A DNA stretch of 64,000 nucleotides from Squalus acanthias (taxonomy: Eukaryota): assembly GCA_030390025.1 (NCBI GenBank), contig JASTWF010000033.1, forward strand, positions 2,544,001 to 2,608,000, in the 5' to 3' direction. Positions 3,864 to 62,800 of the stretch are shown here, piece after piece (within the stretch, counting starts at the first letter, position 1; each line of letters begins with the position of its first letter). The notes under the pieces are model-generated. The model ran no database searches and was not told the origin of the DNA. It saw nothing but the letters and a program-made list of their open reading frames with translations. The position numbers and the translations under genes were made by a program.

Positions 3864-3864
3864 C

Positions 3865-4020
3865 CAGACAGACTAACCTCCCTATCTCTGTAATATCACC
3901 CAATCCAACAACCCTCGCTAAATCTGTAACGTTCTACAGCCCGACAACAATCTCTATCTCTGTTAACTCCTCCAGCCCCAACAACACTCCCTATTTCTGT
4001 AACCTCCTCCAGCCCTTCAA
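3865..4020. repeat. 33-bp minisatellite, right part
   Basis: Same unit as 840-1390. Confidence 0.8.
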
Positions 4021-4024
4021 AATG

Positions 4025-4466
4025 TGTCCATAATAGGAAGATTCCCTTTAAAAGCGGTCCCTGATAGAAATACTCCCTCTTTAAAAGCGGACTTTGATGG
4101 AAAGACTCTCTCTTTAAAAGGGTCTCTGATCATGAGACGCTCTCTTTAAAAGGGATCCCTAATGGGTAGACTCTCTCTTCAAAATGTATCAATGATGCTG
4201 TGTCACCCTCTATAAAAGGGGTTGCTGATGGTGAGACTCTCTCTTTAAAAGGCGTCCCTAACGAGGAGACTGTCATTTTAAAAGGGGTACCTGATAGAAA
4301 GACTCCCTCATTATAAGGGGTCCCAGATGGTGAGACTCCCTCTTTAAAAGGGATCCCTGATGGTGAGACTCTCTCTTCAAAATGTATCCCTGATGCTGAA
4401 TCACCCTCTATAAAAGCGGTCGCTGATGGTGAGTCTCCTCTTTAAAAGGGATCCCTGATGGTGAGA
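4025..4466. repeat. 33-bp satellite (tttaaaaggggtccctgatggtgagactccctc)
   Basis: Tandem units, same family as 12363-13435 and 19904-21955. Confidence 0.9.
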
Positions 4467-4467
4467 A

Positions 4468-43170: not shown

Positions 43171-43176
43171 ACCGAA

Positions 43177-43243: not shown

Positions 43244-43513
43244 GGTTTTAGTTACTTTGTGTCTCCTTCACTATAAGAGGAACGATTCAGGAAAGATTTT
43301 CCACTTCTGAGCTCGCCCATTCACCCAACCTGTCCAAGTCACTCTGTAGCCTCCTTGCATCCTCCTCATTGTTCACACTGCCTCCCAATTCAGTGACACT
43401 CTGCCTAGTTGAAAATACGAACAGTTGGCAATGTTTAAGCGATGTGGGGTTTTCAATGTTTGTGCAAGACAATCCCCCAGCTTGGGTTTGAACCTATCCA
43501 TTGTGCGCTTTGT

Positions 43514-43587: not shown

Positions 43588-43790
43588 TCAGAAAGTTTTC
43601 ATAATTTTACGCTTTTCTCGCACATTTCAAACAGAAACTTTATAATGAAACCAATCCACGCAGACTCTCACGGGGGAATTATTTGGAATAACATCCATTG
43701 CACCTTTGCCACCGAGGCGGAGAGACGTTTATTTGTGTTTCTGGGTTTGCTGATGAACGTTGAACTGCCGGCCTGTTCCCGTTAATGGTC

Positions 43791-45448
43791 TGTAGAATTC
43801 GCAATATAATCGCGATTTTATAAATAAGAAGGAGACACATAGTTTCGTTCAAACAGCTTTATTTCAGCAGAATGCTGTCAGGTTTTCAAAGTTAACACAA
43901 GCAGCCTGTAAAATGGCCGCCAAATCTCGTGGCAGTACATTCTAGACTTTTCGATAAGCAGACAAGATGGCGTTCCAATAAACATTTGTGCGAGATCGAT
44001 CAAGACTCAGCACATTTGAGATAATACACAAGACATAATGGGTTTGCATTTTACACATAAATACTGGAATCGGTCTCCCAGGTGCGAATAAGGGCTATTG
44101 TACCAAGCGATCAAGAACCCATCCAAAGACATTAATATGCAAAATCCCCACGACTCTACGATGAGAGAGCCGTTTGCGGGTAGTTACAGAAACATTTGGA
44201 AGCCCCAAAACCCCTCCAGGGAGAATACTGACCGGTTACACAATGGGAGAAGTATTAACGGGTACTCAGACAGTTACAAGTATCACCGAAACCCATTAAA
44301 CGGAGATCACCCTATACAAGAAGTTTGAGCGCCAAAACTCTGACAAAAGAAAATACATTAAGATTGGGCGGGAAAAGAGGAATCTCAGCACAATAACTGT
44401 AAGCTACAACCGTCCATCTCTCTCTTATTCTCCTGCCTCTTGCCGCTTGTATCGTGCCTCTGCCTCTTGCAGCTTTTAAAGACTATCGAACTTTCTGATC
44501 CGCCAGGATCAGCCTCGTGGCTTGCCGTGAAGATCTGTGTGGAACCGGGCTGTGAAGCCTTGAAACGGGCACACCATCCCGAGAAGTTGGTAAACGGTGT
44601 TGGAACCGAAGGCCCGAGATGAGATGAGATGAGATGAGATGAGAAGAGAAGAAGACGACCATACGTATCGCCACGGTCAGTAAGCCCCGACCGCGCCTGT
44701 AGGTCGAATAGACACTTTCCTTGCCCAGGAAGACTATCTTTTGAGTTTTACAGAACTGGCATCGGAAGACCATTCTTCGAGTTTTATCGCATCGGGGCGA
44801 GGGCACAGGAAGACTATTCTTTGAGTCGTATCGGAACTCCGAGGACAACACAGATCTTCATGACAGCAGACGGTCCAGCCTGCTAGCCGGAGCAGAAACG
44901 AGTAAACAAGTGGGGTACAGAGACCCCTGATCAACACGTGGGTGGTCAGGTGCTGCGGTAAAAACATCCGAGCAGAGTTTTCGGAATTCTCCGAGTTATC
45001 ACGAGTGATGAGCATGAGTCTCGATCCTACAAATCTAGTTTAGAACAGGTATTGATAGGGGAGGGTTTAAGTTTTAAGGTTAATTGTAATGTGTGCCCCC
45101 TTTTACGATGTGTCGTTCGCTCCTCGTTTCCCTAAAATTAGTTACATAACTGCGTGTAAGATTGTAGTGTCATTAATCTGTGCTTATGACATGTATTTCG
45201 TAATCTTGAATAATATGCAATAAAGATTTTCCATTTCGCACCATTCAACCGGGTCTACCTGAGTTTTCTCTCCATTATTGCTCTCGCATCTAAGTCCAGT
45301 GTCAGAACCGTAAGGGCGAGTGGGTCGAACCACTCACAGGTGTCTGGTGCTCCCAGGCTGGCTGGAGACCAGAACAGGCAACAAGGCCTAACCTCGCACT
45401 AGCACCCAGGCTGAGCACAGAGCCACAGGCGTGTCCAAAACCCTTACA
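43791..45448. mobile_element. 1.66-kb solo LTR-like insertion
   Basis: TGTA...TACA termini; interrupts spacer tggtc|acaag; AATAAA at 45219; no long ORF. Confidence 0.7.
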
Positions 45449-45524
45449 GACACAAGCGGGTAAGAGACAGACAGAGCGGCTCTGACCCCGCGAGATGGGC
45501 AAAAGGCTCAGGAGTAATTGCATC

Positions 45525-48500
45525 TGTCATAAATCGCAAGTAACAACTCAGGAAGTACTACTGGGTGGCCAGCTGGGGCGCCGTCCAGGGAGTATAAATA
45601 CTCAGGCATGGGCCCACCTTGGGCAGAGACAATCTGGAAACAGGAAGCTAGTGACTGCTAACTAGACCTCCATGTTTTGTTACAAGTTGATTAAAGCCTT
45701 GCTTTATGTTCAAGTGCGTAGTGAGTCTTTATTACGTCAAATTAATCAACTTGATATCGTCTCCACGCTTTGGGTGATTCGGAACAACCAGCTGCAACTC
45801 GAACCACAGAAGGGAACTTGGGCAAGAAACTGATCCATCATGGAAAAACTCCTTAGACCCGCTCGTCTCGACCTGGACCCGAATGCACCTGCGGCAGCAA
45901 AGGTATGGAAGCATTGGTTTCGTACCTTTAGCAACTTTCTTGAAGAATGTGGGGCGGATGTCCCTAATAAGTTACGAATGCTTATCAACTACGTGTCTCC
46001 TCATGTGTATGATTATATTGAGGACTGTATAGACTATGACACTGCTATCGAAATCTTACAGCAGCTATATGTCAAGTCCCCAAATGAAATCTTTGCTCGA
46101 CACCTACTGGCCACAACTCGGCAGCAGCCTGGGGAATCACTCGATGAATTTCTCCAGAAACTTCGCAGGCTCAGCAAGGATTGTCACCTTAAAGCAGTTT
46201 CAGCTGAACAGTATCAAGAGGAACTAATCCGCGATTCCTTTATCAATGGAATCGCGTCCCCTTTTATACGTCAGCGCCTGCTGGAAAATAAAACCCTCAA
46301 TTTACGGGCTGCTTATGACCAGGCGTGTTCCTTGGACTTGGCCAAGAAAAATGCAGACACTTATCTCCCACCACGTGCACGGGCGGCGGCTATCTCCTTT
46401 AATGAGTCTTTCGGTAGGTCTCGGGCGGATGCCCCCACTGATGTCGACTCTACTCTAAGAGACGACGACCCTACCCTAGAGGCCTTCGCTGATGACGACC
46501 CCGCCCTAGCAGCATCCTGGCAATCAGGAAGAAAGTGTTTCTTTTGTGGAGGGGCGTGCCATCACAGAAAATTTTGCCCGGCTCGTAATGTGACCTGCAA
46601 TCATTGCAGCAAGAAAGGACACTTTTCCAAGGTATGCCAGTCACGGGCCTTTGCTAACAAGAAAGGCCGCTCCTCTAAAGTATACCGGTCGAGAGCTCCT
46701 GTTAGCTTCACAGCTGCTATCTGTGGAGCTGCTCCTCCCCCAAGAACTACTGTTAAGGCTACAGTTGCCGAAGGGAAAATTGCCCCTCCTCCCATCACGG
46801 CTGTTTTTCCCCAAAGTTTGTCCCATGCAGCCACGAAGGTTTCAGTAAATGGGCACACTCTAAGCGCGCTAATCGACTCCTGCAGCTCTGACAGCTTCAT
46901 TAGTAAGCAGGCTGTCAACAGGTTAAAACTGCACATTTATCCCTCGGACAGGGAGATTGCAATGGCTCTGACGACTCTGACCACCAATTCTTCTGGCTTC
47001 TGTCTGGTCAACCTCATCCTCAACGGCCGCACGTATCTCTCCACCCGGCTCGGAGTACTCGCAAACTTATGCAGCGATGTGCTTCTGGGACAGGACTTCC
47101 AGAAGCAGCACAAGAAGATCACTTTTGAGTTTGGAGGGTCAAGGCCGGAGCTTACCATTTCTAAGGTGCCGTTTTGTGCACTCTCGGCGGCCTTACTCGG
47201 TGAACCCTCCCTGTTTGCCAATCTTCCCCCCCGCTGTAAACCCATAGCCACCAAATCGCGGCGCTTTAGCCAAGACGATCGAGCGTTTATTGAGGCGGAA
47301 ATCTCTCGCCTTTTAGTCGACGGTATTATCGAGCCATGTTCATCTCCCTGGCGGGCTCAGGTCGTCATCGTGAGGAATCCCTTAAAACAAAATAAAAAAC
47401 GTCTGTGTATCGATTATTCGCAGACTATTAATCTATATACCGATCTGGATGCCTACCCGCTGCCACGCATAGATGACATGGTCAACAACCTTGCCAAATA
47501 CAAGGTATTCTCGACCTTCGATTTAAAAAGCGCGTACCATCAGGTGCCACTGCAAGACTCCGACAAGAAGTATACGGCCTTTGAGGCCAATGGTCGGCTT
47601 TTCCAGTTTCGCCGCCTTCCATTCGGGGTCACCAATGGGGTGGCCGTCTTCCAACGGGCCATGGATGGCCTAGTCCAGCAAGAGAACTTGACGGATACCT
47701 TTCCGTATTTAGACAATATCACTATTGCCGGCCATGATCAAAAGGAGCATGACGCCAATATTCAGAGATTTTTTTACGTACTCCGCCGTCGCCACTTAAC
47801 GTTAAACGAAACCAAATCGGTGAAGTCGGTGCCATCGGTGAACATTCTTGGCTACTGGGTGGGCAACGGTGTTATTAAACCGGACCCAGAGCGACTTCGT
47901 CCACTTCAGGAGCTCCCTCCCCCGACGAACCTCGGCTTTCTTCGTCGGGCACTTGGCATGTTTGCTTATTACGCAAAATGGATACCACACTTCTCCGATA
48001 AAATACAGCCCCTGCTCCATGCGAAGTCTTTTCCATTGGAAGCTACGGCTACTTCTGCCTTCAACCTCCTCAAACGACAGCTGGAGAAAGCCACGCTTCG
48101 CTCCATTGACGAAAATCTTCCTTTTGTGGTCGAATGCGATGCATCGGAGGTGGCGATCTCCGCTACCTTGAATCAAGGTGGCCGACCCGTGGCATTCCTA
48201 TCCAGAACCTTGCAGGGTAGCGAGCTCCATTACCACCCCGTCGAGAAGGAGGCTACGGCCATCATCGAGGCTGTACGCCAATGGGGTAATTTTCTTGCTC
48301 GGCGTCATTTTACGCTTATAACTGACCAGCGCTCTGTGGCCTTCATGTTGGATAACCGGAGGCGCACGAAAATCAAAAATAATAAAATTCAACTCTGGAG
48401 GATGGAGCTGGCTGCCTTTGGATATACTATCTGTTACCGACCCGGCAAACAGAACGTGGACCCAGATACCTTCACACGGGCATTTTGCTCCTCAATGTCA

Positions 48501-50034
48501 ATGTCGACTCTGTCGGATTTGCATATGGACTTATGCCATCCTGGTGTGACCCGCATGTTGCACTTTGTGCACTCCAAAAATCTACCATTTTCAACCGAGG
48601 ACGTAAAGAAAACATGCTCCTCCTGTAGGATTTGTGCAGAATTGAAACCACAATTCTTTCGCCCATCAGATGGCTTACTCATACATGCAATGCAGCCTAT
48701 GCAGAGGCTCAGCATAGACTTTAAAGGGCCATTGCCTTCGTCGACAAGGAACACCTACCTACTTACGATGGTGGACGAGTATTCACGCTTTCCCTTCGCC
48801 TTCCCCTGCCCTAATATGCTTACCTCTACGGTAATTAAATGCCTCGATCAGGTCTTTTCCCTTTGCGGGACGGCCAATTTTATCCACACTGATCGGGGTC
48901 CCTCCTTTATGTCGAGTGAACTTAAAAGTTATCTCTCCCAACGGGGAATCGCCTCAAGTAGGACGACACCATATCACCCAATCGGTAACGGACAGGTTGA
49001 ACGATACAATGCCATCATCTGGAACGCTGTCCGTCTGGCACTAAGGTCACGCAACCTGCCGGACCAGCAGTTGGAAACGGTGCTCCCCGACGCGTTACAC
49101 TCTATCAGGTCTCTTCTCTCCACATCTACTAATGTCACGCCTCATGAGCGATTCTTCAAATTCCGGCGTCGCTCTACACATGGGACGTCTCTACCGTCAT
49201 GGTTGGTGGCTCCAGGCCCAGTACTACTCCGGAGGTTCGTCCGGTCTGCCAAAAACGACCCTCTCGTTGACGAGGTGGAGTTAACGGAGGTAAACCCCAC
49301 GTATGCGCACGTACGGTACCCTGATGGCCGGGAGACCACCGTCTCGCTCCGAGATCTGGCTCCCTGCCCAACCGGTCACACGGGCCCGAATGATGAAGGA
49401 TCCACCGACAATGATATCAACACTCCGCACCCCTATGAAAATGACGCCCCGCCTGGGACATCGGGGGATCTGCCGGCAACGCTACCGGATCAACTCAGGG
49501 AGCTGGACGCTCCCCGTAGGATGGCCACCCGAAACCAGGACGCCGGACAATCTCCAGCCACGACCCGGGATGAGGCCAGATCAGCACCTGTGGGGACCCG
49601 CACACGGAGTCATGATATTCCCAGTCCTCCACAGGATGATCAAGATGACGCGGACTCTAGTGACTTACCGGTACGGGCCAAGCGACCCAGGGACCAGGAC
49701 ACGGTCTGGGGAGACGTGCCTTCCAGTCACAAGCAGAGAGCTAAACGTCTGTGGCTATTTCTGGTCCGCCTAGTCCGTTAAAGGAAGACTGGACTTCCAA
49801 ACCTTTTCGGGAGGAAGAATGTCATAAATCGCAAGTAACAACTCAAAAAGTACTACTGGGTGGCCAGCTGGGGCGCCGTCCAGGGAGTATAAATACTCAG
49901 GCATGGGCCCACCTTGGGCAGAGACAATCTGGAAACAGGAAGCTAGTGACTGCTAACTAGACCTCCATGTTTTGTTACAAGTTGATTAAAGCCTTGCTTT
50001 ATGTTCAAGTGCGTAGTGAGTCTTTATTACGTCA
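45525..50034 (+). mobile_element. Full-length Ty3/Gypsy LTR retrotransposon
   Basis: 215-bp TG..CA LTRs 45525-45739 and 49820-50034 (2 differences); 5-bp TSD gcatc; PPT gggaggaagaa 49809-49819. Confidence 0.97.
45840..49781 (+). CDS. Gypsy Gag-Pol polyprotein (1313 aa)
   Basis: Two CCHC-type knuckles, PR LIDSCSS, RT YLDN, RNase H CDAS, IN HHCC plus D,D,E; uninterrupted. Confidence 0.95.
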   Translation: MEKLLRPARLDLDPNAPAAAKVWKHWFRTFSNFLEECGADVPNKLRMLINYVSPHVYDYIEDCIDYDTAIEILQQLYVKSPNEIFARHLLATTRQQPGESLDEFLQKLRRLSKDCHLKAVSAEQYQEELIRDSFINGIASPFIRQRLLENKTLNLRAAYDQACSLDLAKKNADTYLPPRARAAAISFNESFGRSRADAPTDVDSTLRDDDPTLEAFADDDPALAASWQSGRKCFFCGGACHHRKFCPARNVTCNHCSKKGHFSKVCQSRAFANKKGRSSKVYRSRAPVSFTAAICGAAPPPRTTVKATVAEGKIAPPPITAVFPQSLSHAATKVSVNGHTLSALIDSCSSDSFISKQAVNRLKLHIYPSDREIAMALTTLTTNSSGFCLVNLILNGRTYLSTRLGVLANLCSDVLLGQDFQKQHKKITFEFGGSRPELTISKVPFCALSAALLGEPSLFANLPPRCKPIATKSRRFSQDDRAFIEAEISRLLVDGIIEPCSSPWRAQVVIVRNPLKQNKKRLCIDYSQTINLYTDLDAYPLPRIDDMVNNLAKYKVFSTFDLKSAYHQVPLQDSDKKYTAFEANGRLFQFRRLPFGVTNGVAVFQRAMDGLVQQENLTDTFPYLDNITIAGHDQKEHDANIQRFFYVLRRRHLTLNETKSVKSVPSVNILGYWVGNGVIKPDPERLRPLQELPPPTNLGFLRRALGMFAYYAKWIPHFSDKIQPLLHAKSFPLEATATSAFNLLKRQLEKATLRSIDENLPFVVECDASEVAISATLNQGGRPVAFLSRTLQGSELHYHPVEKEATAIIEAVRQWGNFLARRHFTLITDQRSVAFMLDNRRRTKIKNNKIQLWRMELAAFGYTICYRPGKQNVDPDTFTRAFCSSMSMSTLSDLHMDLCHPGVTRMLHFVHSKNLPFSTEDVKKTCSSCRICAELKPQFFRPSDGLLIHAMQPMQRLSIDFKGPLPSSTRNTYLLTMVDEYSRFPFAFPCPNMLTSTVIKCLDQVFSLCGTANFIHTDRGPSFMSSELKSYLSQRGIASSRTTPYHPIGNGQVERYNAIIWNAVRLALRSRNLPDQQLETVLPDALHSIRSLLSTSTNVTPHERFFKFRRRSTHGTSLPSWLVAPGPVLLRRFVRSAKNDPLVDEVELTEVNPTYAHVRYPDGRETTVSLRDLAPCPTGHTGPNDEGSTDNDINTPHPYENDAPPGTSGDLPATLPDQLRELDAPRRMATRNQDAGQSPATTRDEARSAPVGTRTRSHDIPSPPQDDQDDADSSDLPVRAKRPRDQDTVWGDVPSSHKQRAKRLWLFLVRLVR

Positions 50035-50278: not shown

Positions 50279-50350
50279 TCCCTGGTGATCTAGTGGTTAG
50301 GATTCGGCCTTTTCACCACCGCGGACCGGGTTCGATTCCCGCTCAGAGAA
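50279..50350 (+). pseudogene. tRNA-Glu(TTC) pseudogene
   Basis: Multiple stem mismatches. Confidence 0.8.
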
Positions 50351-51200
50351 CAGTGTGTTTTGGGACTGATTGAATTGCCACCATTCAACGCACATTCGCG
50401 AAATAATGCTCGCCCCTGATCGAACGAAACAGCAATGCAAAATACACTGCCTTGATTTCTGTAAAATGCATGCTGTTTCAAAGTCAGCAGGAAATGATTA
50501 GCCCTTTCTGTCAACTTTTAGACTTGCTGATTGACACATGAAATGTTGCCAACATTTAACTGCAGTTCACAGTGTCAGGACAGTCACGGTTATTATCAGT
50601 CTTCCGTGTATCTTCTTGCCCATTGCATCTCCCTAACAAACTTAGCTTATTACAGGCACGGCTATCAATCAATTCGTTGCCAGTGTGAAAAATGCAGCAT
50701 TCGAAACTTAGCAACGTGTGCAAGACTGGAATCAGAGAGTGCCTGGGCAGTGATAACTTAACCTGAGCCCTTCCTGTAGGAACGAAGAGACCACAGGGCG
50801 GGGAAGGAGCCTGGGCATTTTCAGTTCTGTGTGGGAGCATCATACCTGCGGCAGAAGATTGAACTTGACATCATTTCAGCTTGGCTCGTGCTCAGTGAGT
50901 CTTCGGCCCGTCTCTCCCTTCACAACACATCAGTGCGGAGAAAAGAACATCGAATTTTACACATGTGTTGTGTTCTGTAACTTTATTGGTGCATTCCACG
51001 CAGTGTCCAACACGGTGAGGTCCCCCCGGCTGTGTCAGCTTTGTATCTTTATCCACAACCCAGCTTTACATGAACACAACCTGAGCTCCGAGATCTGGTC
51101 GGGTCACATTGCCCGAAGTGAGGAATGAGCCGGAGGAGGAATGCCACCCTGGGTTAGAAAATCCTCCAAAAGAATGACACAAGCTGGCGCTTGTTGTGAG

Positions 51201-51273
51201 GCCGAAATAGCTCAGGTGGGAGAGCGTTAGGTTGAAAATCTAAAGCTCCGTGTTTCGATCCCGGGTTTGGGCA
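51201..51273 (+). pseudogene. tRNA-Phe(GAA) pseudogene
   Basis: T-arm and acceptor mismatches. Confidence 0.8.
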
Positions 51274-51337
51274 GGTGTTAGTTACTTTTGTCTCCTTCAC
51301 TGTAAGAGGAACGATTCAGGAGAGCTTTTCCACTTCT

Positions 51338-51438
51338 GAGCCTGCGTCTACCAAAGAAATGGGCCCGAACCACGTCAGGTCCGGCTCCAGCCGCCCGCTG
51401 CGGGTTCGAATCCAGTCGGCGTCCTGCCGGCTCTTTTT
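51338..51438 (+). ncRNA. Candidate Pol III tRNA-like ncRNA, copy 1
   Basis: GAGCC/GGCTC terminal stem, GGTTCGAATCC B box, T5 terminator. Confidence 0.4.
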
Positions 51439-51692
51439 ATACCGGGACAGCGTTTGAGGGAGGGGCTGTTCAGCGGTGGTGCGATAATAAATTTTAGAAT
51501 GAGGTTTGTTAGATTAAAGAGCTCTTATTCTGTAACTTTCGATTGACACTCTGCCCAGTTTTATAAACGAACAGTTGACAATGTTTAAGCGATGTGGTGT
51601 GTTCAATGTTTGTGCAGTAACTCGGTAACCCAGTGTCAGCCTGCAAGACAATCCCCCAGCCTAGGTTTGAGCCGATCCAGTAAGCGGCTTGG

Positions 51693-51766
51693 GGCCGTTT
51701 AGCTCAGTTGGCGAGAGCGTGGTGTTAATAACGCCACGGTCGGGGGTTCGATCCCCGTACGGGCCA
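51693..51766 (+). pseudogene. tRNA-Ile(AAT) variant/pseudogene
   Basis: Acceptor and T-stem mismatches. Confidence 0.75.
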
Positions 51767-52277
51767 TAAGAATATTTTCATAATTTTACGCTTTTCTCGC
51801 ACATTTCAAATAGAAACTTTATAATGAAACCAATCCACGCAGACTCTCACGGGGGAATTATTTGGAATAACATCCTTTGCCACCGAGGCGGAGAGACGTT
51901 TATTTCTGTTTCTGGGTTTGCTGATGAACGTTGAACTGGCGGCCTGTTCCAATGAATGGTCACAAGCGGGTAAGAGACAGACAGAGCGGCTCTGACCCCG
52001 CGAGATGGGCAAAAGGCTTCAGTTCAGGAGTAAATGCATAAATTGGCCCGGCCCCGAGAGAGACAACATCCAGAGAAAAGCACAGAAGGAAATCGATTTC
52101 AAGTGCATGCCTACCCGCACTTGCTGCCGTGGTTTCACGAACACGTCTTTTGTGTTCTCAACTAAAAAATGTCATTTTGCACGAACAGTTTGCCTGGCGC
52201 GAAAGTATCTGAATTTCAAAGGAGCACGCAGGAACGACTGCGTTGCTGTGCTTTCTAGCAGGGAGTTTGCCGTAGCT

Positions 52278-52349
52278 TCCCTGGTGGTCTAGTGGTTAGG
52301 ATGCGGCGCTCTCACTGCTGTGGCTCGGGTTCGATTCCCGGTCAGGGAA
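52278..52349 (+). tRNA. tRNA-Glu(CTC) variant
   Basis: Cloverleaf retained through G:U pairs; anticodon CTC. Confidence 0.75.
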
Positions 52350-53239
52350 CAGTGCGTTTTGGGACTGTTTGAATTGCCACCATTCAACGCACATTCGCGG
52401 TACAATGCTCGCTCCTGATCGAACGAAACAGTGATGCAAAATACACTGCCTTGATTTCTGTAACATGCATGCTGTTTCAAAGTCAGCAGGAAATGATTAG
52501 CCCTTTCTGTCAACTTTTAGACTTGCTGATTGACACTTGAATTGTTGCCAAGATTTAACTGCAGTTCACAGTGTCAGGACAGTCACGGTTATTATCAGTC
52601 TTCCGTGTATCTTCTTGCCCACTGCATCTCCCTAACAAACTTAGCTTATCACAGGCACGGCTATCAATCAATTCGTTGCCAGTGTGAAAAATGCAGCATT
52701 CGAAACTTAGCAACGTGTGCAAGACTGGAATCAGAGAGTGCCTGGGCAGTGATAACTTAACCTGAGCATGAAGATATTCATTAGGCCTGAGCCCTTCCTG
52801 TATTGCCCACTGAGTAAGGAACGAAGAGACCACAGGCCGGGATGCAGCCTGGGCATTTTCAGTTCTGTGTGGGAGCACCATACCTGCGGCTGAAGATTGA
52901 ACTTGACATGATTTCAGCTTGTCTCGTGCTCAGTGAGACTTCAGACCGTCTCTCCCTTCACAACCCATCAGTGCGGAGAAAAGAACATTGAATTTTACAC
53001 ATGTGTTGTGTTTTGTAACTGTATTGGTTCATTCCACGCTGTGTCCAACACGGTGAGGTCCCCCCCCGCTGTGTCAGCTTTGTATCTGTATCCAAAACCC
53101 AGCTTTACACGAACACAACCTAAGCTCCGAGATCTGGTCGGGTCGCATTGCCCAAAGTGAGGAATGAGCCGGAGGAGTAATGCCACCCGGGGTTAGAAAA
53201 TCCTCCAAAAGAATGACACATGACAGAATTTGCTGTGAG

Positions 53240-53312
53240 GTCGAAATAGCTCAGTTGGGAGAGCGTTAGACTGAAGATGTAAAGGTCCCTGGTTCGATCC
53301 CGGGTTACGGCA
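53240..53312 (+). pseudogene. tRNA-Phe(GAA) variant/pseudogene
   Basis: Acceptor and anticodon-stem mismatches. Confidence 0.75.
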
Positions 53313-53377
53313 GGTTTTAGTTACTTTTTGTCTCCTTCACTATAAGAGGAACGATTCAGGAGAGATTTTCCACTTCT

Positions 53378-53480
53378 GAGCTCGCGTCTACCAAAGAAAT
53401 GGGCCCGAACCACGTTAGATCCGGCTCCAACCGCCCGCTGCTGGTTCGAATCCAGTCGGGGTCCCGCCGGCTCTCTTTTT
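53378..53480 (+). ncRNA. Candidate Pol III tRNA-like ncRNA, copy 2
   Basis: Terminal stem, GCTGG-TTCGAAT-CCAGT T-arm, T5. Confidence 0.4.
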
Positions 53481-53732
53481 ACCGGGACAGTGTTGGAGGG
53501 AGGGGCTGTTCAGCGGTGGTGCGATAATAAATTTTAGAATGAGTTTTGTTAGATTAAAGAGCTCTTTCTCTGTAACTTTCGATTGACACTCTGCCCAGAT
53601 GTATACAGGAACAGTTGACAATGTTTAAGCGATGTGGTGTGTTCAATGTTTGTGCAGTAAATCGGTCACCCAGTGTGAGCCTGAAAAACAATCCCCCAGG
53701 CTGGGTTGGAGCCTATATATTGGGCGCTTTGT

Positions 53733-53806
53733 GGCCGGTTAGCTCAGTTGGCGAGAGCGTGGTGCTAATAACGCCAAGGTCGCGGGTTCGATCCCCGTAC
53801 GGGCCA
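53733..53806 (+). tRNA. tRNA-Ile(AAT)
   Basis: Canonical vertebrate sequence except D-loop GGCGA. Confidence 0.9.
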
Positions 53807-54327
53807 TCAGAATGTTATCATAATTTTACGCTTTTCTCGCACATTTCAAATAGAAGCTTTATAATGAAACCAATCCACGCAGACTCTCACGGGGGAATTA
53901 TTTGGAGTAACATCCATTGCACCTTTGCCACCGAGGCGGAGAGACGTTTATTTGTGTTTCTGGTTTTGCTGATGAACGTTGAACTGGCGACCTGTTCCCG
54001 TTAATGGTCACAAGCGGGTAAGAGACAGACAGAGCGGCTCTGGCCCCGCGAGATGGGCAAAAGGCTCAGGAGTAACTGCATCAATGAAATGTAGGCCCGG
54101 CCCCGAGAGAGGCAACATCCAGTAGAAAAGCACAGAAGGAAATCGATTTCAAGTGCATGCCTACCCGCACTTGCTGCCGTGGTTTCGCGAACACGTCTTT
54201 TGTGTTCTCAACTAAAAAATGTCATTTTGTACGAACAGTTTGCCTGGCGCGAAAGTATCTGAATTTCAAAGGAGCACGCAGGAAAGACTGCCTTGCTGTG
54301 CTTTCTGGCAGGTAGCTTGCTGTAGCT

Positions 54328-54399
54328 TCCCTGGTGGTCTAGTGGTTAGGATTCGGCGCTTTCACCACCGCGGCCCGGGTTCGATTCCCGGTCAGGGAA
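54328..54399 (+). tRNA. tRNA-Glu(TTC)
   Basis: Canonical with one anticodon-stem mismatch. Confidence 0.8.
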
Positions 54400-55299
54400 C
54401 AGTGTGTTTTGGGACTGTTTGAATTGCCACCATTCAACGCACATTCGCGATATAATGCTCGCCCCTGATCGAACGAAACAGTGATGCAAAATACACTGCC
54501 TTGATTTCTGTAAAATGCATGCTGTTTCAAAGTCAGCAGGAAATGATTAGCCCTTTCTGTCAACTTTTAGACTTGCTGATTGACACTTGATATGTTGCCA
54601 ACATTTAACTGCAGCTCACAGTATCAGGACAGTCACGGTTATTATCAGTCTTCCGTGTATCTTCTTGCCCACTGCATCTCCCTAGAAAACTTAGCTTATC
54701 ACAGGCACGACTATCAATCAATTCGTTGCCAGTGTGAAAAATGCAGCATTCGAAACTTAGCAACGTGTGCAAGACTGGAATCAGAGAGTGCCTGGGCAGT
54801 GATAACTTAACCTGAGCATGAATATATTCATTAGGCCTGAGCCCTTCCTGTATTGCCCACTGAGTGAGGAACGAAGAGACCACAGGCCGGGATGCAGCCT
54901 GGGCATTTTCAGTTCTGTGTGGGAGCACCATACCTGCGGCTGGAGATTGAACTTGACATCATTTCAGCTTGGCTCGTGATCAGTGCGGCTCAGTGAGACT
55001 TCGGCCCGTCTCTCCCTTCACAACCCATCAGTGCGGAGAAAAGAACATTGAATTTTACACATGTGTTGTGTTCTGTAACTGTATTGGTTCATTCCACGCT
55101 GTGTCCAACACGGTGAGGTTCCCCCGGCTGTGTCAGCTTTGTATCTTTATCCACAACCCAGCTTTACATGAACACAACATAAGCTCCGAGATCTGGTCGG
55201 GTCACATTGCCCGAAGTGAGGAATGAGCCGGAGGAGGAATGCCACCCGGGGTTAGAAAATCCTCCAAAAGAATGACACAAGATGCAAATTTTCTGTGAG

Positions 55300-55373
55300 G
55301 CCGAAATATCTCAGTTGGGAGAGCGTCAGACTGAAGCTCTTAAAGGTTCCTGGTTCGATCCCTGGTTTCGGCA
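55300..55373 (+). pseudogene. tRNA-Phe(GAA) pseudogene
   Basis: D-stem mismatch, 1-nt insertion. Confidence 0.8.
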
Positions 55374-55439
55374 GGTTTTAGTTACTTTTTTGTCTCCTTC
55401 ACTATAAGAGGAACGATTCAGGAGAGATTTTCCACTTCT

Positions 55440-55542
55440 GAGCCCGCGTCTACCAAAGAAATGGGCCCGAAGCACGTTAGATTCGGCTCCAGCCGCCCGC
55501 TGCTGGTTCGAATCCAGTCGGGGTCCCGCCGGCTCTCTTTTT
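55440..55542 (+). ncRNA. Candidate Pol III tRNA-like ncRNA, copy 3
   Basis: GAGCCcGCG/CGCcGGCTC terminal stem, T-arm, T5. Confidence 0.4.
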
Positions 55543-55794
55543 ACCGGGACAGTGTTGGAGGGAGGGGCTGTTCAGCGGTGGTGCGATAATAAATTTTAGA
55601 ATGAGTTTTGTTAGATTAAAGAGCTCTTTCTCTGTAACTTTCGATTGACACTCTGCCCAGATGTATACAGGAACAGTTGACAATGTTTAAGCGATGTGGT
55701 GTGTTCAATGTTTGTGCAGTAAATCGGTCACCCAGTGTGAGCCTGAAAAACAATCCTCCAGCCTGGGTTGGAGCCTGTATCTTGGGCGCTTTGT

Positions 55795-55868
55795 GGCCGG
55801 TTAGCTCAGTTGGCGAGAGCGTGGTGCTAATAACGCCAAGGTCGCGGGTTCGATCCCCGTACGGGCCA
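55795..55868 (+). tRNA. tRNA-Ile(AAT)
   Basis: Identical to the copy at 53733. Confidence 0.9.
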
Positions 55869-56379
55869 TCAGAATGTTATCATAATTTTACGCTTTTCTC
55901 GCACATTTCAAATAGAAGCTTTATAATGAAACCAATCCACGCAGACTCTCACGGGGGAATTATTTGGAATAACATCCTTTGCCACCGAGGCGGAGAGACG
56001 TTTATTTCTGTTTCTGGGTTTGCTGATGAACGTTGAACTGGCGGCCTGTTCCAGTGAATGGTCACAAGCGGGTAAGAGACAGACAGAGCGGCTCTGACCC
56101 CGCGAGATGGGCAAAAGGCTTCAGTTCAGGAGTAAATGCATAAATTGGCCCGGCCCCGAGAGAGACAACATCCAGAGAAAAGCACAGAAGGAAATCGATT
56201 TCAAGTGCATGCCTACCCGCACTTGCTGCCGTGGTTTCACGAACACGTCTTTTGTGTTCTCAACTAAAAAATGTCATTTTGCACGAACAGTTTGCCTGGC
56301 GCGAAAGTATCTGAATTTCAAAGGAGCACGCAGGAACGACTGCGTTGCTGTGCTTTCTAGCAGGGAGCTTGCCGTAGCT

Positions 56380-56451
56380 TCCCTGGTGGTCTAGTGGTTA
56401 GGATGCGGCGCTCTCACTGCTATGGCTCGGGTTCGATTCCCGGTCAGGGAA
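56380..56451 (+). tRNA. tRNA-Glu(CTC) variant
   Basis: Anticodon CTC; weakened anticodon stem. Confidence 0.65.
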
Positions 56452-57340
56452 CAGTGTGTTTTGGGACTGTTTGAATTGCCACCATTCAACGCACATTCGC
56501 GGTACAATGCTCGCTCCTGATCGAACGAAACAGTGATGCAAAATACACTGCCTTGATTTCTGTAACATGCATGCTGTTTCAAAGTCAGCAGGAAATGATT
56601 AGCCCTTTCTGTCAACTTTTAGACTTGCTGATTGACACTTGAAATGTTGCCAACATTTAACTGCAGTTCACAGTGTCAGGACAGTCACGGTTATTATCAG
56701 TCTTCCGTGTATCTTCTTGCCCACTGCATCTCCCTAACAAACTTAGCTTATCACAGGCACGGCTATCAATCAATTCGTTGCCAGTGTGAAAAATGCAGCA
56801 TTCGAAACTTAGCAACGTGTGCAAGACTGGAATCAGAGAGTGCCTGGGCAGTGATAACTTAACCTGAGCATGAAGATATTCATTAGGCCTGAGCCCTTCC
56901 TGTATTGCCCACTGAGTAAGGAACGAAGAGACCACAGGCCGGGATGCAGCCTGGGCATTTTCAGTTCTGTGTGGGAGCACCATACCTGCGGCTGAAGATT
57001 GAACTTGACATGATTTCAGCTTGTCTCGTGCTCAGTGAGACTTCAGACCGTCTCTCCCTTCACAACCCATCAGTGCGGAGAAAAGAACATTGAATTTTAC
57101 ACATGTGTTGTGTTCTGTAACTGTATTGGTTCATTCCACGCTGTGTCCAACACGGTGAGGTTCCCCCGGCTGTGTCAGCTTTGTATCTTTATCCACAACC
57201 CAGCTTTACATGAACACAACATAAGCTCCGAGATCTGGTCGGGTCACATTGCCCGAAGTGAGGAATGAGCCGGAGGAGGAATGCCACCCGGGGTTAGAAA
57301 ATCCTCCAAAAGAATGACACAAGATGCAATTTTCTGTGAG

Positions 57341-57414
57341 GCCGAAATATCTCAGTTGGGAGAGCGTCAGACTGAAGCTCTTAAAGGTTCCTGGTTCGAT
57401 CCCTGGTTTCGGCA
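57341..57414 (+). pseudogene. tRNA-Phe(GAA) pseudogene
   Basis: Same lesions as the copy at 55300. Confidence 0.8.
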
Positions 57415-57479
57415 GGTTTTAGTTACTTTTTGTCTCCTTCACTATAAGAGGAACGATTCAGGAGAGATTTTCCACTTCT

Positions 57480-57582
57480 GAGCCCGCGTCTACCAAAGAA
57501 ATGGGCCCGAAGCACGTTAGATTCGGCTCCAGCCGCCCGCTGCTGGTTCGAATCCAGTCGGGGTCCCGCCGGCTCTCTTTTT
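57480..57582 (+). ncRNA. Candidate Pol III tRNA-like ncRNA, copy 4
   Basis: Same as copy 3. Confidence 0.4.
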
Positions 57583-57834
57583 ACCGGGACAGTGTTGGAG
57601 GGAGGGGCTGTTCAGCGGTGGTGCGATAATAAATTTTAGAATGAGTTTTGCTAGATTAAAGAGCTCTTTCTCTGTAACTTTCGATTGACACTCTGCCCAG
57701 ATGTATACAGGAACAGTTGACAATGTTTAAGCGATGTGGTGTGTTCAATGTTTGTGCAGTAAATCGGTCACCCAGTGTGAGCCTGAAAAACAATCCTCCA
57801 GCCTGGGTTGGAGCCTGTATCTTGGGCGCTTTGT

Positions 57835-57908
57835 GGCCGGTTAGCTCAGTTGGCGAGAGCGTGGTGCTAATAACGCCAAGGTCGCGGGTTCGATCCCCGT
57901 ACGGGCCA
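57835..57908 (+). tRNA. tRNA-Ile(AAT)
   Basis: Intact cloverleaf. Confidence 0.9.
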
Positions 57909-58430
57909 TCAGAATGTTATCATAATTTTACGCTTTTCTCGCACATTTCAAATAGAAGCTTTATAATGAAACCAATCCACGCAGACTCTCACGGGGGAAT
58001 TATTTGGAGTAACATCCATTGCACCTTTGCCACCGAGGCGGAGAGACGTTTATTTGTGTTTCTGGTTTTGCTGATGAACGTTGAACTGGCGACCTGTTCC
58101 CGTTAATGGTCACAAGCGGGTAAGAGACAGACAGAGCGGCTCTGGCCCCGCGAGATGGGCAAAAGGCTCAGGAGTCAAATGCATCAATGAAATGTAGGCC
58201 CGGCCCCGAGAGAGGCAACATCCAGTAGAAAAGCACAGAAGGAAATCGATTTCAAGTGCATGCCTACCCGCCCTTGCTGCCGTGGTTTCGCGAACACGTC
58301 TTTTGTGTTCTCAACTAAAAAATGTCATTTTGTACGAACAGTTTGCCTGGCGCGAAAGTATCTGAATTTCAAAGGAGCACGCAGGAAAGACTGCCTTGCT
58401 GTGCTTTCTGGCAGGGAGCTTGCTGCAGCT

Positions 58431-58502
58431 TCCCTGGTGGTCTAGTGGTTAGGATTCGGCGCTTTCACCGCCGCGGCCCGGGTTCGATTCCCGGTCAGGG
58501 AT
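58431..58502 (+). tRNA. tRNA-Glu(TTC)
   Basis: Canonical sequence; discriminator base T instead of A. Confidence 0.9.
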
Positions 58503-59400
58503 CAGTGTGTTTTGGGACTGTTTCAATTGCCACCATTCAACGCACATTCGCGAAATAATGCTCGCCCCTGAACGAACGAAACAGTGATGCAAAATACACT
58601 GCCTTGATTTCTGTAAAATGCATGCTGTTTCAAAGTCAGCAGGAAATGATTAGCCCTTTCTGTCAACTTTTAGACTTGCTGATTGACACTTGATATGTTG
58701 CCAACATTTAACTGCAGCTCACAGTATCAGGACAGTCCCGGTTATTATCAGTCTTCCGTGTATCTTCTTGCCCACTGCATCTCCCTAGCAAATTAGCTTA
58801 TCACAGGCACGACTATCAATCAATTCGTTGCCAGTGTGAAAAATGCAGCATTCGAAACTTAGCAACGTGTGCAAGACTGGAATCAGAGAGTGCCTGGGCA
58901 GTGATAACTTAACCTGAGCATGAATATATTCATTAGGCCTGAGCCCTTCCTGTATTGCCCACTGAGTGAGGAACGAAGAGACCACAGGCCGGGATGCAGC
59001 CTGGGCATTTTCAGTTCTGTGTGGGAGCACCATACCTGCGGCTGAAGATTGAACTTGACATCATTTCAGCTTGGCTCGTGATCATTGCGGCTCAGTGAGA
59101 CTTCGGCCCGTCTCTCCCTTCACAACCCATCAGTGCGGAGAAAAGATCATTGAATTTTACACATGTGTTGTGTTCTTTAACTGTATTGGTTCATTCCACG
59201 CTGTGTCCAACACGGTGAGGTCCCCCCGGCTGTGTCAGCTTTGTATCTTTATCCACAACCCAGCTTTACATGAACACAACCTAAGCTCCGAGATCTGGTC
59301 GGGTCACATTGCCCGAAGTGAGGAATGAGCCGGAGGAGGAATGCCATCCGGGGTTAGAAAATCCTACAAAAGAATGACACAAGATGCCATTAGCTGTGAG

Positions 59401-59406
59401 GCCTAA

Positions 59407-59437
<31 letters not shown>

Positions 59438-59473
59438 CTCTAAAGAATCCTGGTTCGATCCCGGTTTTCGGCA
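59401..59473 (+). pseudogene. tRNA-Phe(GAA) pseudogene
   Basis: Stem mismatches. Confidence 0.8.
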
Positions 59474-59538
59474 GGTTTTAGTTACTTTTTGACTCCTTCA
59501 CTATAAGAGGAACGATTCAGGAGAGATTTTCCACTTCT

Positions 59539-59641
59539 GAGCCCGCGTCGACCAAAGAAATGGGCCCGAACCACGTTAGATCCGGCTCCAGCCGCCCGCT
59601 GCTGGTTCGAATCCAGTCGGGGTCCCGCCGGCTCTCTTTTT
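59539..59641 (+). ncRNA. Candidate Pol III tRNA-like ncRNA, copy 5
   Basis: Terminal stem, T-arm, T5. Confidence 0.4.
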
Positions 59642-59894
59642 ACCGGGACAGTGTTGGAGGGAGGGGCTGTTCAGCAGTGGTGCGATAATAAATTTTAGAA
59701 TGAGTTTTGTTAGATTAAAGAGCTCTTTCTCTGTAACTTTCGATCGACACTCTGCCCAGATGTATACAGGAACAGTTGACAATGTCTAAGCGATGTGGGG
59801 TGTTCAATGTTTGTGCAGTAAATCGGTCACCCAGTGTGAGCCTGAAAAACTATCCCCCAGCCTGGGTTTGAGCCTACCCCCTTGGGCGCTTTGT

Positions 59895-59968
59895 GGCCGG
59901 TTAGCTCAGTTGGCGAGAGTGTGGTGCTAATAACGCCAAGGTCGCGGGGTCGATCCCCGTACGGGCCA
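59895..59968 (+). pseudogene. tRNA-Ile(AAT) variant with mutated T-loop
   Basis: GGGTCGA instead of GGTTCGA. Confidence 0.75.
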
Positions 59969-60488
59969 TCAGAATGTTATCATAATTTTACGCTTTTCTC
60001 GCACATTTCAAATAGAAACTTTATAATGAAACCAATCCACGCAGACTCTCACGGGGGAATTATTTGGAATAACATCCATTGCACCTCTGCCACCGAGGCG
60101 GAGAGACGTTTATTTGTGTTTCTGGGTTTTCTGATGAACGTTGAACTGGCGGCCTGTTCCCGTTAATGGTCACAAGCGGGTAAGAGACAGACAGAGCGGC
60201 TCTGGCCCCGCGAGATGTGCAAAAGGCTCAGGAGTAAATGCATCAATGAAATGTAGGCCCGGCCCCGAGAGAGGTAGCATCAAGAGAAAAGCACAGTAGG
60301 AAATCGATTTCAAGTGCATGCCTACCCGCACTTGCTGCCGTGGTTTCGCGAACACGTCTTTTGTGTTCTCAACTAAAAAATGTCATTTTGTACGAACAGT
60401 TTGCCTGGCGCGAAAGTATCTGAATTTCAAAGGAGCACGCAGCAAAGACTGCCTTGCTGTGCTTTCGGGCAGGTAGCTTGCTGTCGCT

Positions 60489-60560
60489 TTCCTGGTGGTC
60501 TAGTGGTTAGGATACGGCGCTTTCACCGCCGCGGCGCGGGTTGGATTCCTGGTTAGGGGA
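60489..60560 (+). pseudogene. tRNA-Glu(TTC) pseudogene
   Basis: B box GGTTGGA, stem mismatches. Confidence 0.8.
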
Positions 60561-60650
60561 CAGTGTGTTTTGGGACTGTTTGAATTGCCACCATTCAACG
60601 CACATTCGCGAAATAATGCTCGCCCCTGATCGAACGAAATAATGATATAA

Positions 60651-60718
60651 TGTTGTGTAGTGGGTATCACGTTCACCTAACGTGCGAAAAGTCCCAGGTT
60701 CGAAACTGGGTGGAAGCA
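60651..60718 (+). pseudogene. tRNA-Val(AAC) pseudogene, 5' acceptor strand lost
   Basis: gtgtagtgggtatcacgttcacctAACgtgcgaaa...ggttcgaaactgggtggaagca. Confidence 0.8.
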
Positions 60719-62439: not shown

Positions 62440-62464
62440 TTCCCTAACCGGGAATCGAACCCAG
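62440..62464 (-). pseudogene. tRNA-Glu 3' fragment
   Basis: ctgggttcgattcccggttagggaa on minus strand. Confidence 0.55.
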
Positions 62465-62800
62465 TTCCTCCCCCACGATGGTTGGAATAGTTTATTAAAT
62501 CATTTAAATGTGCCCTCGAAACATTTCACACCGCTAGTTTAAAATCACTGCTTCAATTTGTTTCTGTGTTGAAGAAGGGGGTGAAAATGATAATAAAAAC
62601 GCCAGGCAGCACCCGCGGTGAGACAAGGTTTGAACTATACAAAGAAGTTGGGGCTGCGAAGTAACCACGGAGCTAAAGCTGACGACGATTAAAGGATGAG
62701 AAACCGCTCAATATAAAGGATGAGCTCACCATCAAGCCCCTCCTTTCTTATTCAGAGACATGAACGGGAGTCAGACGCCACAAACTTTAATTAAAGGCAC

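What the first reader, a model, noticed from the sequence alone, without database searches (positions are those of the whole stretch)
51338..59641. Unannotated ~96-nt Pol III-like RNA gene in every intact tRNA-array unit
Seen: five copies (51338, 53378, 55440, 57480, 59539), ~65 bp downstream of tRNA-Phe. Each has 5'/3' ends that pair (GAGCCcGCG/CGCcGGCTC), internal hairpins (ccgaa/ttcgg in copies 3-4; cagc/gctg), a T-arm GCTGG-TTCGAAT-CCAGT whose B box is intact in all copies, and an immediate T5 terminator. It has no clear D-arm, A box or anticodon arm. It appears better preserved than the neighbouring Phe genes. The size and closed terminal stem recall vault, Y or VA-type RNAs; GGCTCCAG...GGTTCGAATCC also resembles tRNA-Leu(AAG/TAG). 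Inference: a tRNA-derived small RNA, a dicistronic Phe-X transcript, or an extra TFIIIC site.
Basis: partly seen in the sequence, partly recalled or inferred. Interest (0 to 1): 0.7.

Follow-up and report, generated by a model that had tools for sequence, protein, structure and literature searches.

The report
Refolded tRNA-Trp descendant in tRNA array
Each intact repeat of a shark-type tRNA gene array carries a 96-base element whose back half comes from a tryptophan tRNA and whose front half is predicted to fold back on it as a long hairpin; it may be an undescribed small RNA gene, but nothing yet shows that it is expressed or under selection.

Summary
The five 96-nt copies are real and match no Rfam family. 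They are not vault, Y, VA or tRNA-Leu.

The 3' half derives from eukaryotic tRNA-Trp(CCA). X60-87 matches 21-23 of 28 nt and X43-53 matches 9 of 11. Four of the five differences in the best block swap two T-stem pairs while keeping them paired. The 5' 35 nt are not recognisably Trp; they are an imperfect inverted copy of the 3' 32 nt. The RNA is therefore predicted to fold as a rod that melts the T-arm (P<=0.05).

There is no A box, but there is a perfect B box, a T5 terminator and the only TATA-like box in the unit's spacers, 37 nt upstream. Phe has its own terminator, so a dicistron is unlikely.

Against function: X varies among copies as much as the spacers (p=0.65). It looks well kept only beside the decaying Phe genes, and a sixth unit lost it. 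Near-identical DNA occurs under four organism labels; expression is untested.

Best reading (0.45): a BC1/4.5SI-like Pol III rod RNA born from tRNA-Trp. Main rival (0.35): a dead chimeric relic.

The parts
51338..51433 (+). X copy 1; most diverged (6 differences from the majority, T-stem broken, TATA box mutated)
53378..53473 (+). X copy 2 (2 differences from the majority)
55440..55535 (+). X copy 3 (2 differences; identical to copy 4)
57480..57575 (+). X copy 4
59539..59634 (+). X copy 5 (1 difference from the majority; most stable rod, -41.7 kcal/mol, z -2.6)
55403..55408 (+). TATA-like box TATAAG, 37 nt before X and 31 nt before an A at X-6 (shown for copy 3). Present in 5 of 6 units; the only TATA[AT][AG] in 1716 nt of unit spacer
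55440..55474 (+). X1-35 of copy 3: not detectably Trp; imperfect reverse complement of X65-96
55482..55526 (+). X43-87 of copy 3: tRNA-Trp(CCA)-derived part (shortened anticodon arm, variable loop, T-arm, 3' acceptor strand)
55505..55515 (+). B box GGTTCGAATCC of copy 3
55538..55542 (+). T5 Pol III terminator-like run after copy 3
43309..43395 (+). Sixth unit: first 8 or so nt of X, then a 78-nt fragment 96-97% identical to two stretches elsewhere in the window (one inside the LINE-like region) in place of the rest
55300..55373 (+). tRNA-Phe(GAA) upstream of X (also 43171, 51201, 53240, 57341, 59401); copies are degenerate and followed by their own T-runs
55795..55868 (+). tRNA-Ile(AAT) of the unit (one per unit)
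56380..56451 (+). tRNA-Glu of the unit (CTC or TTC)

Best explanation
X is the fourth gene position of a Phe-[Trp]-Ile-Glu tRNA repeat, once a tRNA-Trp(CCA) gene and since remodelled. SHOWN by sequence: the 3' half is Trp-derived; the 5' 35 nt are complementary to the 3' 32 nt; B box, T5 run and an upstream TATA-like box are present; the A box and D-stem are gone. PREDICTED: the RNA folds as an imperfect rod of about 30 bp that sequesters the B-box sequence, rather than as a cloverleaf. INFERRED: the 5' half arose by a fold-back (inverted) duplication of the pre-tRNA's 3' end, or by stepwise re-pairing. TFIIIC bound at the B box, together with TBP/TFIIIB at the TATA box, lets Pol III make a transcript of about 96-105 nt ending in U4-5. 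Having no tRNA fold, it escapes RNase P/Z trimming, and its paired ends make it stable. LEAST CERTAIN (about 0.2 on its own): it acts as a protein-binding rod, a decoy for translation factors or dsRNA sensors in the manner of BC1 or (recalled) nc886 and VA RNA, and not as an adaptor tRNA.
For: In the 125 loci examined (these plus 1) there were 128 matches, and ARAGORN called 126 tRNA-Trp(CCA) genes, 126 of 126 with the pattern. X60-87 matches 21-23 of 28 nt and X43-53 matches 9 of 11 in the 8 most frequent of 11 distinct 72-nt Trp sequences. Outside the universal B-box positions, T-stem plus acceptor identity is 14 of 18 for Trp and at most 11 of 18 for the other classes. Non-random change: 127 of 128 matches have GT/AC at T-stem pairs 51:63 and 52:62, where X has TG/CA, still paired. 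These are 4 of the 5 differences in the best 28-nt block, and the same four bases also pair in the rod. Rod: inverted-repeat score is 28 for the majority sequence and 25-31 for copies 2, 3 and 5, against a maximum of 22 in 117 Trp genes with own flanks, a maximum of 26 in 1362 spacer 96-mers, and 2 of 14334 window positions at 28 or more. T-arm probability is <=0.05 in full X, 0.96-0.98 once X1-42 is removed (copies 2, 3, 5), and median 0.63-0.67 in 116 real Trp genes. Promoter: TATAAG in 5 of 6 units, none in the 60 nt before 6 Phe or 6 Glu genes. Composition: GC 0.66 and 11 CpG (o/e 1.07); 0 of 1363 spacer 96-mers reach either value. Precedent: BC1 is tRNA-Ala refolded into a hairpin (PMC4233971, passages); 4.5SH/4.5SI RNAs are 94-98 nt with a -31/-24 TATA-like box that matters more when box A is weak (PMC7279448, passages); complementary ends stabilise 4.5SI (PMC3440375, abstract); vertebrate tRNA-Sec has TATA, PSE and a B box and no functional A box (PMC2943599, passages). 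Near-identical DNA (at least 6 of 14 words) lies in 8 of 22 listed runs, from 5 studies and 4 organism labels.
Against: There is no sign of purifying selection among the copies: X diversity is 0.050 against 0.025-0.062 in five spacer segments, p=0.65. Of the 6 distinct variants at paired rod positions, 4 break the pair and 2 keep it as G-U. Fold z-scores are modest (-0.8 to -2.6; majority -2.0). Copies 3-4 lose the central CGAACCA:TGGTTCG helix, and one unit lost X. One fold-back event could produce the rod without any selection. One conversion patch from another tRNA's T-arm, or a shark Trp variant absent from my panel, could explain the swapped pairs. The inverted-repeat boundaries were chosen after looking. 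The degenerate positions of the Trp pattern were chosen with recalled Trp in mind; the masked-alignment test alone (3 of 400 shuffles; 29 rows) does not survive correction. The panel lacks Tyr, His, Asp, Ile, Sec, Met and several Leu/Ser/Arg classes, and its sources are unidentified eukaryotes. In 15% of 116 real Trp precursors the T-arm probability is also below 0.06. No PSE was identified. A TATA box plus a B box without A box or PSE is not an established promoter in the papers seen. 12 of 109 Trp genes also have a TATA-like box upstream.
Confidence: 0.45

Rival explanations
1. Dead chimeric relic: a tRNA-Trp gene was inactivated when its 5' half was overwritten by a fold-back copy. It is untranscribed and persists only because the 2-kb unit is amplified and homogenised as a block.
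For: No A box. Within-array divergence equals the spacer's. 4 of 6 variants at paired positions break pairs. X is lost in the sixth unit. The neighbouring Phe copies are themselves degenerate. The T-run may be the old Trp terminator: it lies 10-12 nt after position 72, within the range of 117 Trp genes. One spacer segment is also CpG-rich (o/e 0.95).
Against: Needs separate chance or single-event explanations for the paired T-stem swap, the re-paired anticodon hairpin, the consensus B box and the well-placed TATA box. Five recently homogenised copies (93-98% identical) give little power to detect selection.
Confidence: 0.35
2. DNA-level element: the B box is kept as an extra TFIIIC (ETC-type) site that organises or insulates the array; the RNA is irrelevant.
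For: B box perfect in 5 of 5 copies, no A box. ETC sites serve as chromatin scaffolds and include tRNA-derived repeats (PMC5340127, passages).
Against: Each unit already has three tRNA genes with B boxes. This reading does not explain the paired T-stem changes, the rod, the TATA box or the terminator.
Confidence: 0.1
3. mascRNA-like or D-armless tRNA mimic: RNase P and RNase Z cut out a core of about 64 nt (X24-87) that gains CCA and acts as a decoy for Trp-tRNA synthetase or as a primer-like RNA.
For: X24-30 can pair with X80-86 at 6 of 7 positions; the T-arm pairs are conserved; the CCA anticodon triplet is retained in a 4-bp hairpin. The only tRNA-clan Rfam match covers exactly this core (tRNA-Sec model, 14 bits, E 3-6).
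Against: The tRNA-like fold is 7.6-19.4 kcal/mol worse than the MFE. T-arm P is <=0.08 even for X24-87 alone. The discriminator is C where Trp has A. RF01684 gives no match on X.
Confidence: 0.07
4. Dicistronic Phe-X precursor that uses the Phe promoter.
For: X lies only about 65 nt downstream on the same strand and lacks an A box.
Against: 6 of 6 Phe genes have at least T4 within 16 nt, and 4 of 6 a further T5-T6. X has its own TATA-like box.
Confidence: 0.03

Closest known systems
BC1 RNA of rodents (PMC4233971, passages)
   Same: [quoted passage not shown]
   Different: BC1 is 152 nt, from tRNA-Ala by retrotransposition, keeps about 80% similarity over its 5' region, and is a shown neuronal translation repressor. 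X comes from Trp, keeps only the 3' half, sits in a tandem tRNA repeat, and has no shown expression.
4.5SI and 4.5SH RNAs of rodents (PMC7279448 passages; PMC3440375 abstract)
   Same: 94-98 nt, lineage-restricted, TATA-like box at -31/-24; 4.5SI has complementary ends that stabilise it; 4.5SH genes lie in tandem 4-5-kb repeats and have a weak box A.
   Different: Both come from SINEs and keep an A box. X has none recognisable, shows no SINE features, and alternates with true tRNA genes.
Cytosolic tRNA-Trp(CCA)
   Same: Anticodon-loop sequence, variable-loop end, T-arm and 3' acceptor strand (up to 32 of 39 nt in two anchored blocks).
   Different: No D-stem or A box; 2 nt shorter between anticodon and T-arm; anticodon stem cut to 3-4 bp; discriminator C; two T-stem pairs swapped; 5' half replaced.
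Vault RNA (RF00006); Y and VA RNAs
   Same: About 95 nt, B box near the 3' end and paired with a 5' segment, closed terminal stem, T-run. A true vault gene lies about 3 kb from copy 5.
   Different: No Rfam match at E<=10; no sequence likeness to the window's vault gene (672 of 5000 shuffles score as well); no A box.
Vertebrate tRNA-Sec promoter (PMC2943599, passages)
   Same: TATA near -30, internal B box, no functional A box.
   Different: tRNA-Sec needs PSE and activator elements. None was identified for X, where the Phe gene's 3' end and terminator occupy that position.

Membership tests
Functional tRNA-Trp | Trp(CCA)-type T-arm, 3' acceptor strand and anticodon-loop sequence | tested here: met
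Functional tRNA-Trp | Cloverleaf with D-arm, 5-bp anticodon stem and 7-nt loop; called by tRNA finders | tested here: not met
   no ARAGORN or RF00005 call; T-arm P<=0.05
tRNA-Leu(AAG/TAG) relic | Leu-type T-stem, acceptor and long variable arm | tested here: not met
   Leu rows z -0.13 and -1.25, at most 10 of 18 anchored. The 4 panel Leu genes are from unidentified eukaryotes, not sharks
Vault RNA | RF00006 sequence/structure score; A box; conserved panhandle | tested here: not met
   the model does find the real vault gene at 48.1 bits
Vault RNA | Association with vault particle / TEP1 (feature recalled) | not testable with these tools
   needs biochemistry
Y RNA / VA RNA / mascRNA | Match to the Rfam models | tested here: not met
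   none listed at E<=10 on copies 3 and 5
tRNA-derived SINE | A and B boxes in the head | tested here: not met
   A box has at least 2 mismatches in 5 of 5 copies
tRNA-derived SINE | Dispersed copies with a LINE-type or A-rich tail | tested here: inconclusive
   0 copies outside the array in 64 kb and no tail seen; no whole genome held. CmiSINE heads are Ala-like (PMC5499810, passages)
BC1/4.5SI-type exapted Pol III RNA | Descent from a tRNA | tested here: met
BC1/4.5SI-type exapted Pol III RNA | Hairpin fold with complementary ends instead of a cloverleaf | tested here: met
   predicted only; closed ends in 4 of 5 copies
BC1/4.5SI-type exapted Pol III RNA | TATA-like box at -31/-24 plus internal A and B boxes | tested here: inconclusive
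   TATAAG at -37 from X1 (-31 if the start is the A at X-6; start site inferred) and B box present; A box absent
BC1/4.5SI-type exapted Pol III RNA | Abundant discrete transcript | not tested
   no read-level data were obtained
BC1/4.5SI-type exapted Pol III RNA | Conservation across species above that of the flanks | tested here: inconclusive
   4 organism labels hold at least 6 of 14 words; their relatedness and the shared part are unknown
Extra-TFIIIC site | TFIIIC bound without Pol III | not testable with these tools
   needs ChIP; a B box without an A box is present

The most novel reading that the evidence does not exclude
X is a conserved cartilaginous-fish Pol III gene born in place inside a tRNA repeat when a tRNA-Trp precursor acquired an inverted copy of its own 3' end. 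That single step removed the A box, turned a cloverleaf into a vault/VA-like rod and left a TATA-plus-B-box promoter. Because the four swapped T-stem bases pair in both folds, the RNA could switch between a rod and a tRNA-like elbow. It would be a visible intermediate in the birth of panhandle-type Pol III RNAs from tRNA, amplified together with the tRNA array.
Probability: 0.3. Interest if true: 0.75.

Novelty: new variant of a known kind. Interest (0 to 1): 0.48.

Why it matters
The best-studied tRNA-derived Pol III RNAs of this size (BC1, 4.5SI) are from rodents and arose through retroposition. If X is expressed and conserved, it would be an example from a shark-type genome, made by a different route (fold-back within a tRNA array) and with an unusual promoter. 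It would also show that the very large shark tRNA clusters (10.1101/2025.06.08.657570, passages) hide RNA genes that tRNA finders and Rfam miss. It makes testable how vault/VA-like rods can evolve from tRNA. If it is dead, it is an unusual pseudogene and of little wider importance.

Tried and rejected
Whole-genome search: no genome is held for this window.

Homologue searches: exact X motifs gave 0 hits in viral, metagenome and prokaryote collections. The Trp-type pattern gave 0 viral hits and 1 genome hit. A shorter T-arm motif returned 45 viral and 121 prokaryote stretches, not analysed beyond an nhmmer pass whose best hit was 19.4 bits.

Sequencing runs: no RNA holder listed. One run is only guessed to be RNA. 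Eight rows with under 5 words (organisms A, B, E-H and one unlabelled) are not used as evidence. No read-level data were obtained, so expression, RNA ends and which part the other organisms share remain open.

Earlier scan notes: nothing on this element. The Trp-array notes concern prokaryotes.

Rejected: (1) Leu origin. (2) Vault paralogue. (3) Homology of the 5' half to the Trp 5' half: shuffles scored as well in 1141-4471 of 5000. A TGG...AAC...TAG echo at tRNA-like spacing from the B box is visible but unsupported. (4) Other hidden tRNA relics in 55875-57335: none; only the Glu gene and a chance-level scaRNA row (E 3.3) were listed. (5) MALAT1-type triple helix upstream: not seen by eye. 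(6) 'Better preserved' as evidence of function.

Literature: no description of this element (four X motifs, 0 papers). These cover only CC-licensed PMC and bioRxiv main texts. No supplements were read; tRNA or small-RNA tables of shark genome papers may bear on the novelty claim.

Full report
SETTING. The window ends in a tandem array of units of 2039-2060 bp, each with tRNA-Phe(GAA), tRNA-Ile(AAT) and tRNA-Glu. Five units are intact and 93-98% identical. A sixth, with Phe at 43171, is interrupted by insertions. A vault RNA gene lies at 62595-62685 on the minus strand (48.1 bits). No genome is held.

OBSERVATION. X is real: five 96-nt copies at the stated starts, and 0 of 100 shuffles give its T-arm motif. 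The B box is intact in 5 of 5 copies and a T5 run follows each. The best A-box match has at least 2 mismatches in all five. Rfam at E<=10 gives only a 14-bit tRNA-Sec-model match to X24-87 and chance-level rows. Copy 1 has a broken T-stem and a mutated TATA box. In the sixth unit X is replaced after about 8 nt by a 78-nt fragment that matches 30920-30997 and 42148-42225 at 96-97%. The claim of good preservation holds only against Phe: variable columns are 11 of 96 in X, 20 of 74 in Phe and 207 of 1516 in spacers (X vs Phe p=0.015; X vs spacer p=0.65; Phe vs spacer p=0.003).

ORIGIN OF THE 3' HALF. Of the first 40, the motif lay in tRNA-Trp in 22, in genes called Ile(TAT) in 9, in other tRNAs in 5, in no called gene in 4, and in Leu in none. 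I then searched a 29-base pattern from X, leaving open the positions where I recalled animal Trp to differ, so this test confirms an idea and is not blind. In 125 loci there were 128 matches and 126 ARAGORN Trp(CCA) genes, all with the pattern. X60-87 equals the last 28 nt of Trp at 21-23 positions, and X43-53 matches the anticodon region at 9 of 11 (8 of 11 distinct variants shown). With the universal B box masked, Trp ranks first of 29 rows (z 3.3, 3 of 400 shuffles; not significant alone after correction) and Leu(AAG) last. The ungapped anchored comparison gives 14 of 18 for Trp and at most 11 for the rest. Met dropped out of the masked panel; Tyr, His, Asp, Ile, Sec and several Leu/Ser/Arg classes were never in it.

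The changes are not scattered. 127 of 128 Trp matches have GT/AC at T-stem pairs 51:63 and 52:62, while X has TG/CA, still paired; these are 4 of the 5 differences in the best block. The stretch between anticodon and T-arm is 2 nt shorter, and the anticodon arm has re-paired as a 4-bp hairpin with a UCCA loop (P 0.9-0.99 in copies 1 and 5, 0.38 in copy 2, 0.01 in copies 3-4). Selection on structure is one explanation. One conversion patch from another tRNA, or an unseen shark Trp variant, are others.

THE 5' HALF. It is not detectably Trp: shuffles score as well in 1141-4471 of 5000. Instead X1-35 is an imperfect reverse complement of X65-96, including the trailer. The score is 25, 25 and 31 for copies 2, 3 and 5 (27, 35 and 0 of 20000 shuffles) and 28 for the majority sequence. 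Controls: at most 22 in 117 Trp genes with their flanks, at most 26 in 1362 spacer 96-mers, and 2 of 14334 window positions at 28 or more. The boundaries were chosen after looking. Predicted folds are rods closed at the ends in copies 2-5, with the B-box sequence paired to X29-35 in copies 1, 2 and 5 and to X41-47 in copies 3-4. T-arm probability is <=0.05 in full X, 0.96-0.98 without X1-42 in copies 2, 3 and 5, and median 0.63-0.67 in 116 Trp genes, 15% of which also fall below 0.06 with flanks. Forcing a tRNA-like fold costs 7.6-19.4 kcal/mol. Overall z-scores are modest (-0.8 to -2.6; majority -2.0; the true vault gene -1.8). Of 6 distinct variants at paired positions 4 break the pair.

PROMOTER. 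TATAAG lies 37 nt before X1 in 5 of 6 units, and 31 nt before an A at X-6 that could be the start (inferred). It is the only TATA[AT][AG] in 1716 nt of unit spacer; none precedes the 6 Phe or 6 Glu genes; the window rate is 0.94 per kb; 12 of 109 Trp genes have one at -65 to -20. X is the most GC- and CpG-rich stretch measured in the unit (0.66; 11 CpG; 0 of 1363 spacer 96-mers reach either). All 6 Phe genes have their own T-run, which argues against a dicistron.

OTHER ORGANISMS AND EXPRESSION. For 59500-59665, 8 of 22 listed runs hold at least 6 of 14 sampled words; they come from 5 studies and 4 organism labels, four of the runs are one sample, and the best holder may be the window's own source. 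By arithmetic 126 of the 136 possible 31-mer positions overlap X, so part of X is near-identical under these labels. How related the organisms are, and whether their spacers are equally similar, is unknown. Expression was not tested.

MECHANISM. The sequence shows a Trp-derived 3' half, a complementary 5' half, a B box, a T-run and a TATA-like box. I infer a Pol III transcript of about 96-105 nt that folds as a rod, is not processed as a tRNA and is stabilised by its paired ends, as shown for 4.5SI (PMC3440375, abstract). A TATA-like box at -31/-24 matters more when box A is weak (PMC7279448, passages), and vertebrate tRNA-Sec has no functional A box but needs a PSE (PMC2943599, passages), which I did not find here. 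A role as a protein-binding decoy is by analogy with BC1 (PMC4233971, passages) and, from recall only, nc886 and VA RNA. I put this reading at 0.45, a dead relic carried by concerted evolution at 0.35, an ETC site at 0.10 (PMC5340127, passages), a processed mascRNA-like core at 0.07 and a dicistron at 0.03.

KNOWN KINDS AND NOVELTY. By anatomy it resembles BC1 and 4.5SI, but it is a member of neither, nor of vault, Y, VA, mascRNA, the tRNA-SINEs or functional tRNA-Trp. I found no description (CC-licensed PMC and bioRxiv main texts; no supplements read). The shark genome preprint reports large tRNA clusters found with tRNAscan-SE at score 50 or more (10.1101/2025.06.08.657570, passages), a filter that X would probably not pass (inference). 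Verdict: a real, apparently undescribed, tRNA-Trp-derived element and a new variant of a known kind; function is plausible but not shown. Interest 0.48.

Noticed in passing
window 62595-62685 (-): A vault RNA gene (RF00006, 48.1 bits) with a TATA-like box about 34 nt upstream lies about 2 kb from the end of the tRNA array.
   Followed up: partly
window 43171, 51201, 53240, 55300, 57341, 59401 (tRNA-Phe copies): The Phe genes differ among units more than the spacers do (20 of 74 columns against 207 of 1516, p=0.003), and each carries stem or box changes. Unexplained; transcription-linked mutation or mixed conversion donors are possibilities.
   Followed up: partly
window 50279-60561 (tRNA-Glu copies): Anticodons run TTC, CTC, TTC, CTC, TTC, TTC and unit lengths 2039, 2060, 2041, 2060, pointing to a 4.1-kb dimer. 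X of units 3 and 4 is identical across the dimer halves and their Phe genes read alike, suggesting a conversion patch.
   Followed up: no
window 45525-50034: LTR-bounded element with one 1313-aa ORF (45840-49781) and a 5-bp target-site duplication, inserted in the Ile-Glu spacer of the first unit; class not tested.
   Followed up: no
window about 43790-45450: A second insertion of about 1.65 kb in the same spacer, without an ORF of 200 aa or more; not identified.
   Followed up: no
window about 60650-60717 (+) and about 62440-62465 (-): By eye, a decayed tRNA-Val-like sequence at the array's end and a short tRNA 3'-end fragment with a B box; Rfam lists neither at E<=1.
   Followed up: partly
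window 4046-4466, 12370-13432, 19914-21924: Three arrays of one 33-bp minisatellite, up to 61.5 copies.
   Followed up: no
L003, L005, L009, L011, L012, L014, L025, L031, L033: Nine viral loci carry a 95-nt gene that ARAGORN calls tRNA-Ile(TAT), unusually long for that type.
   Followed up: no
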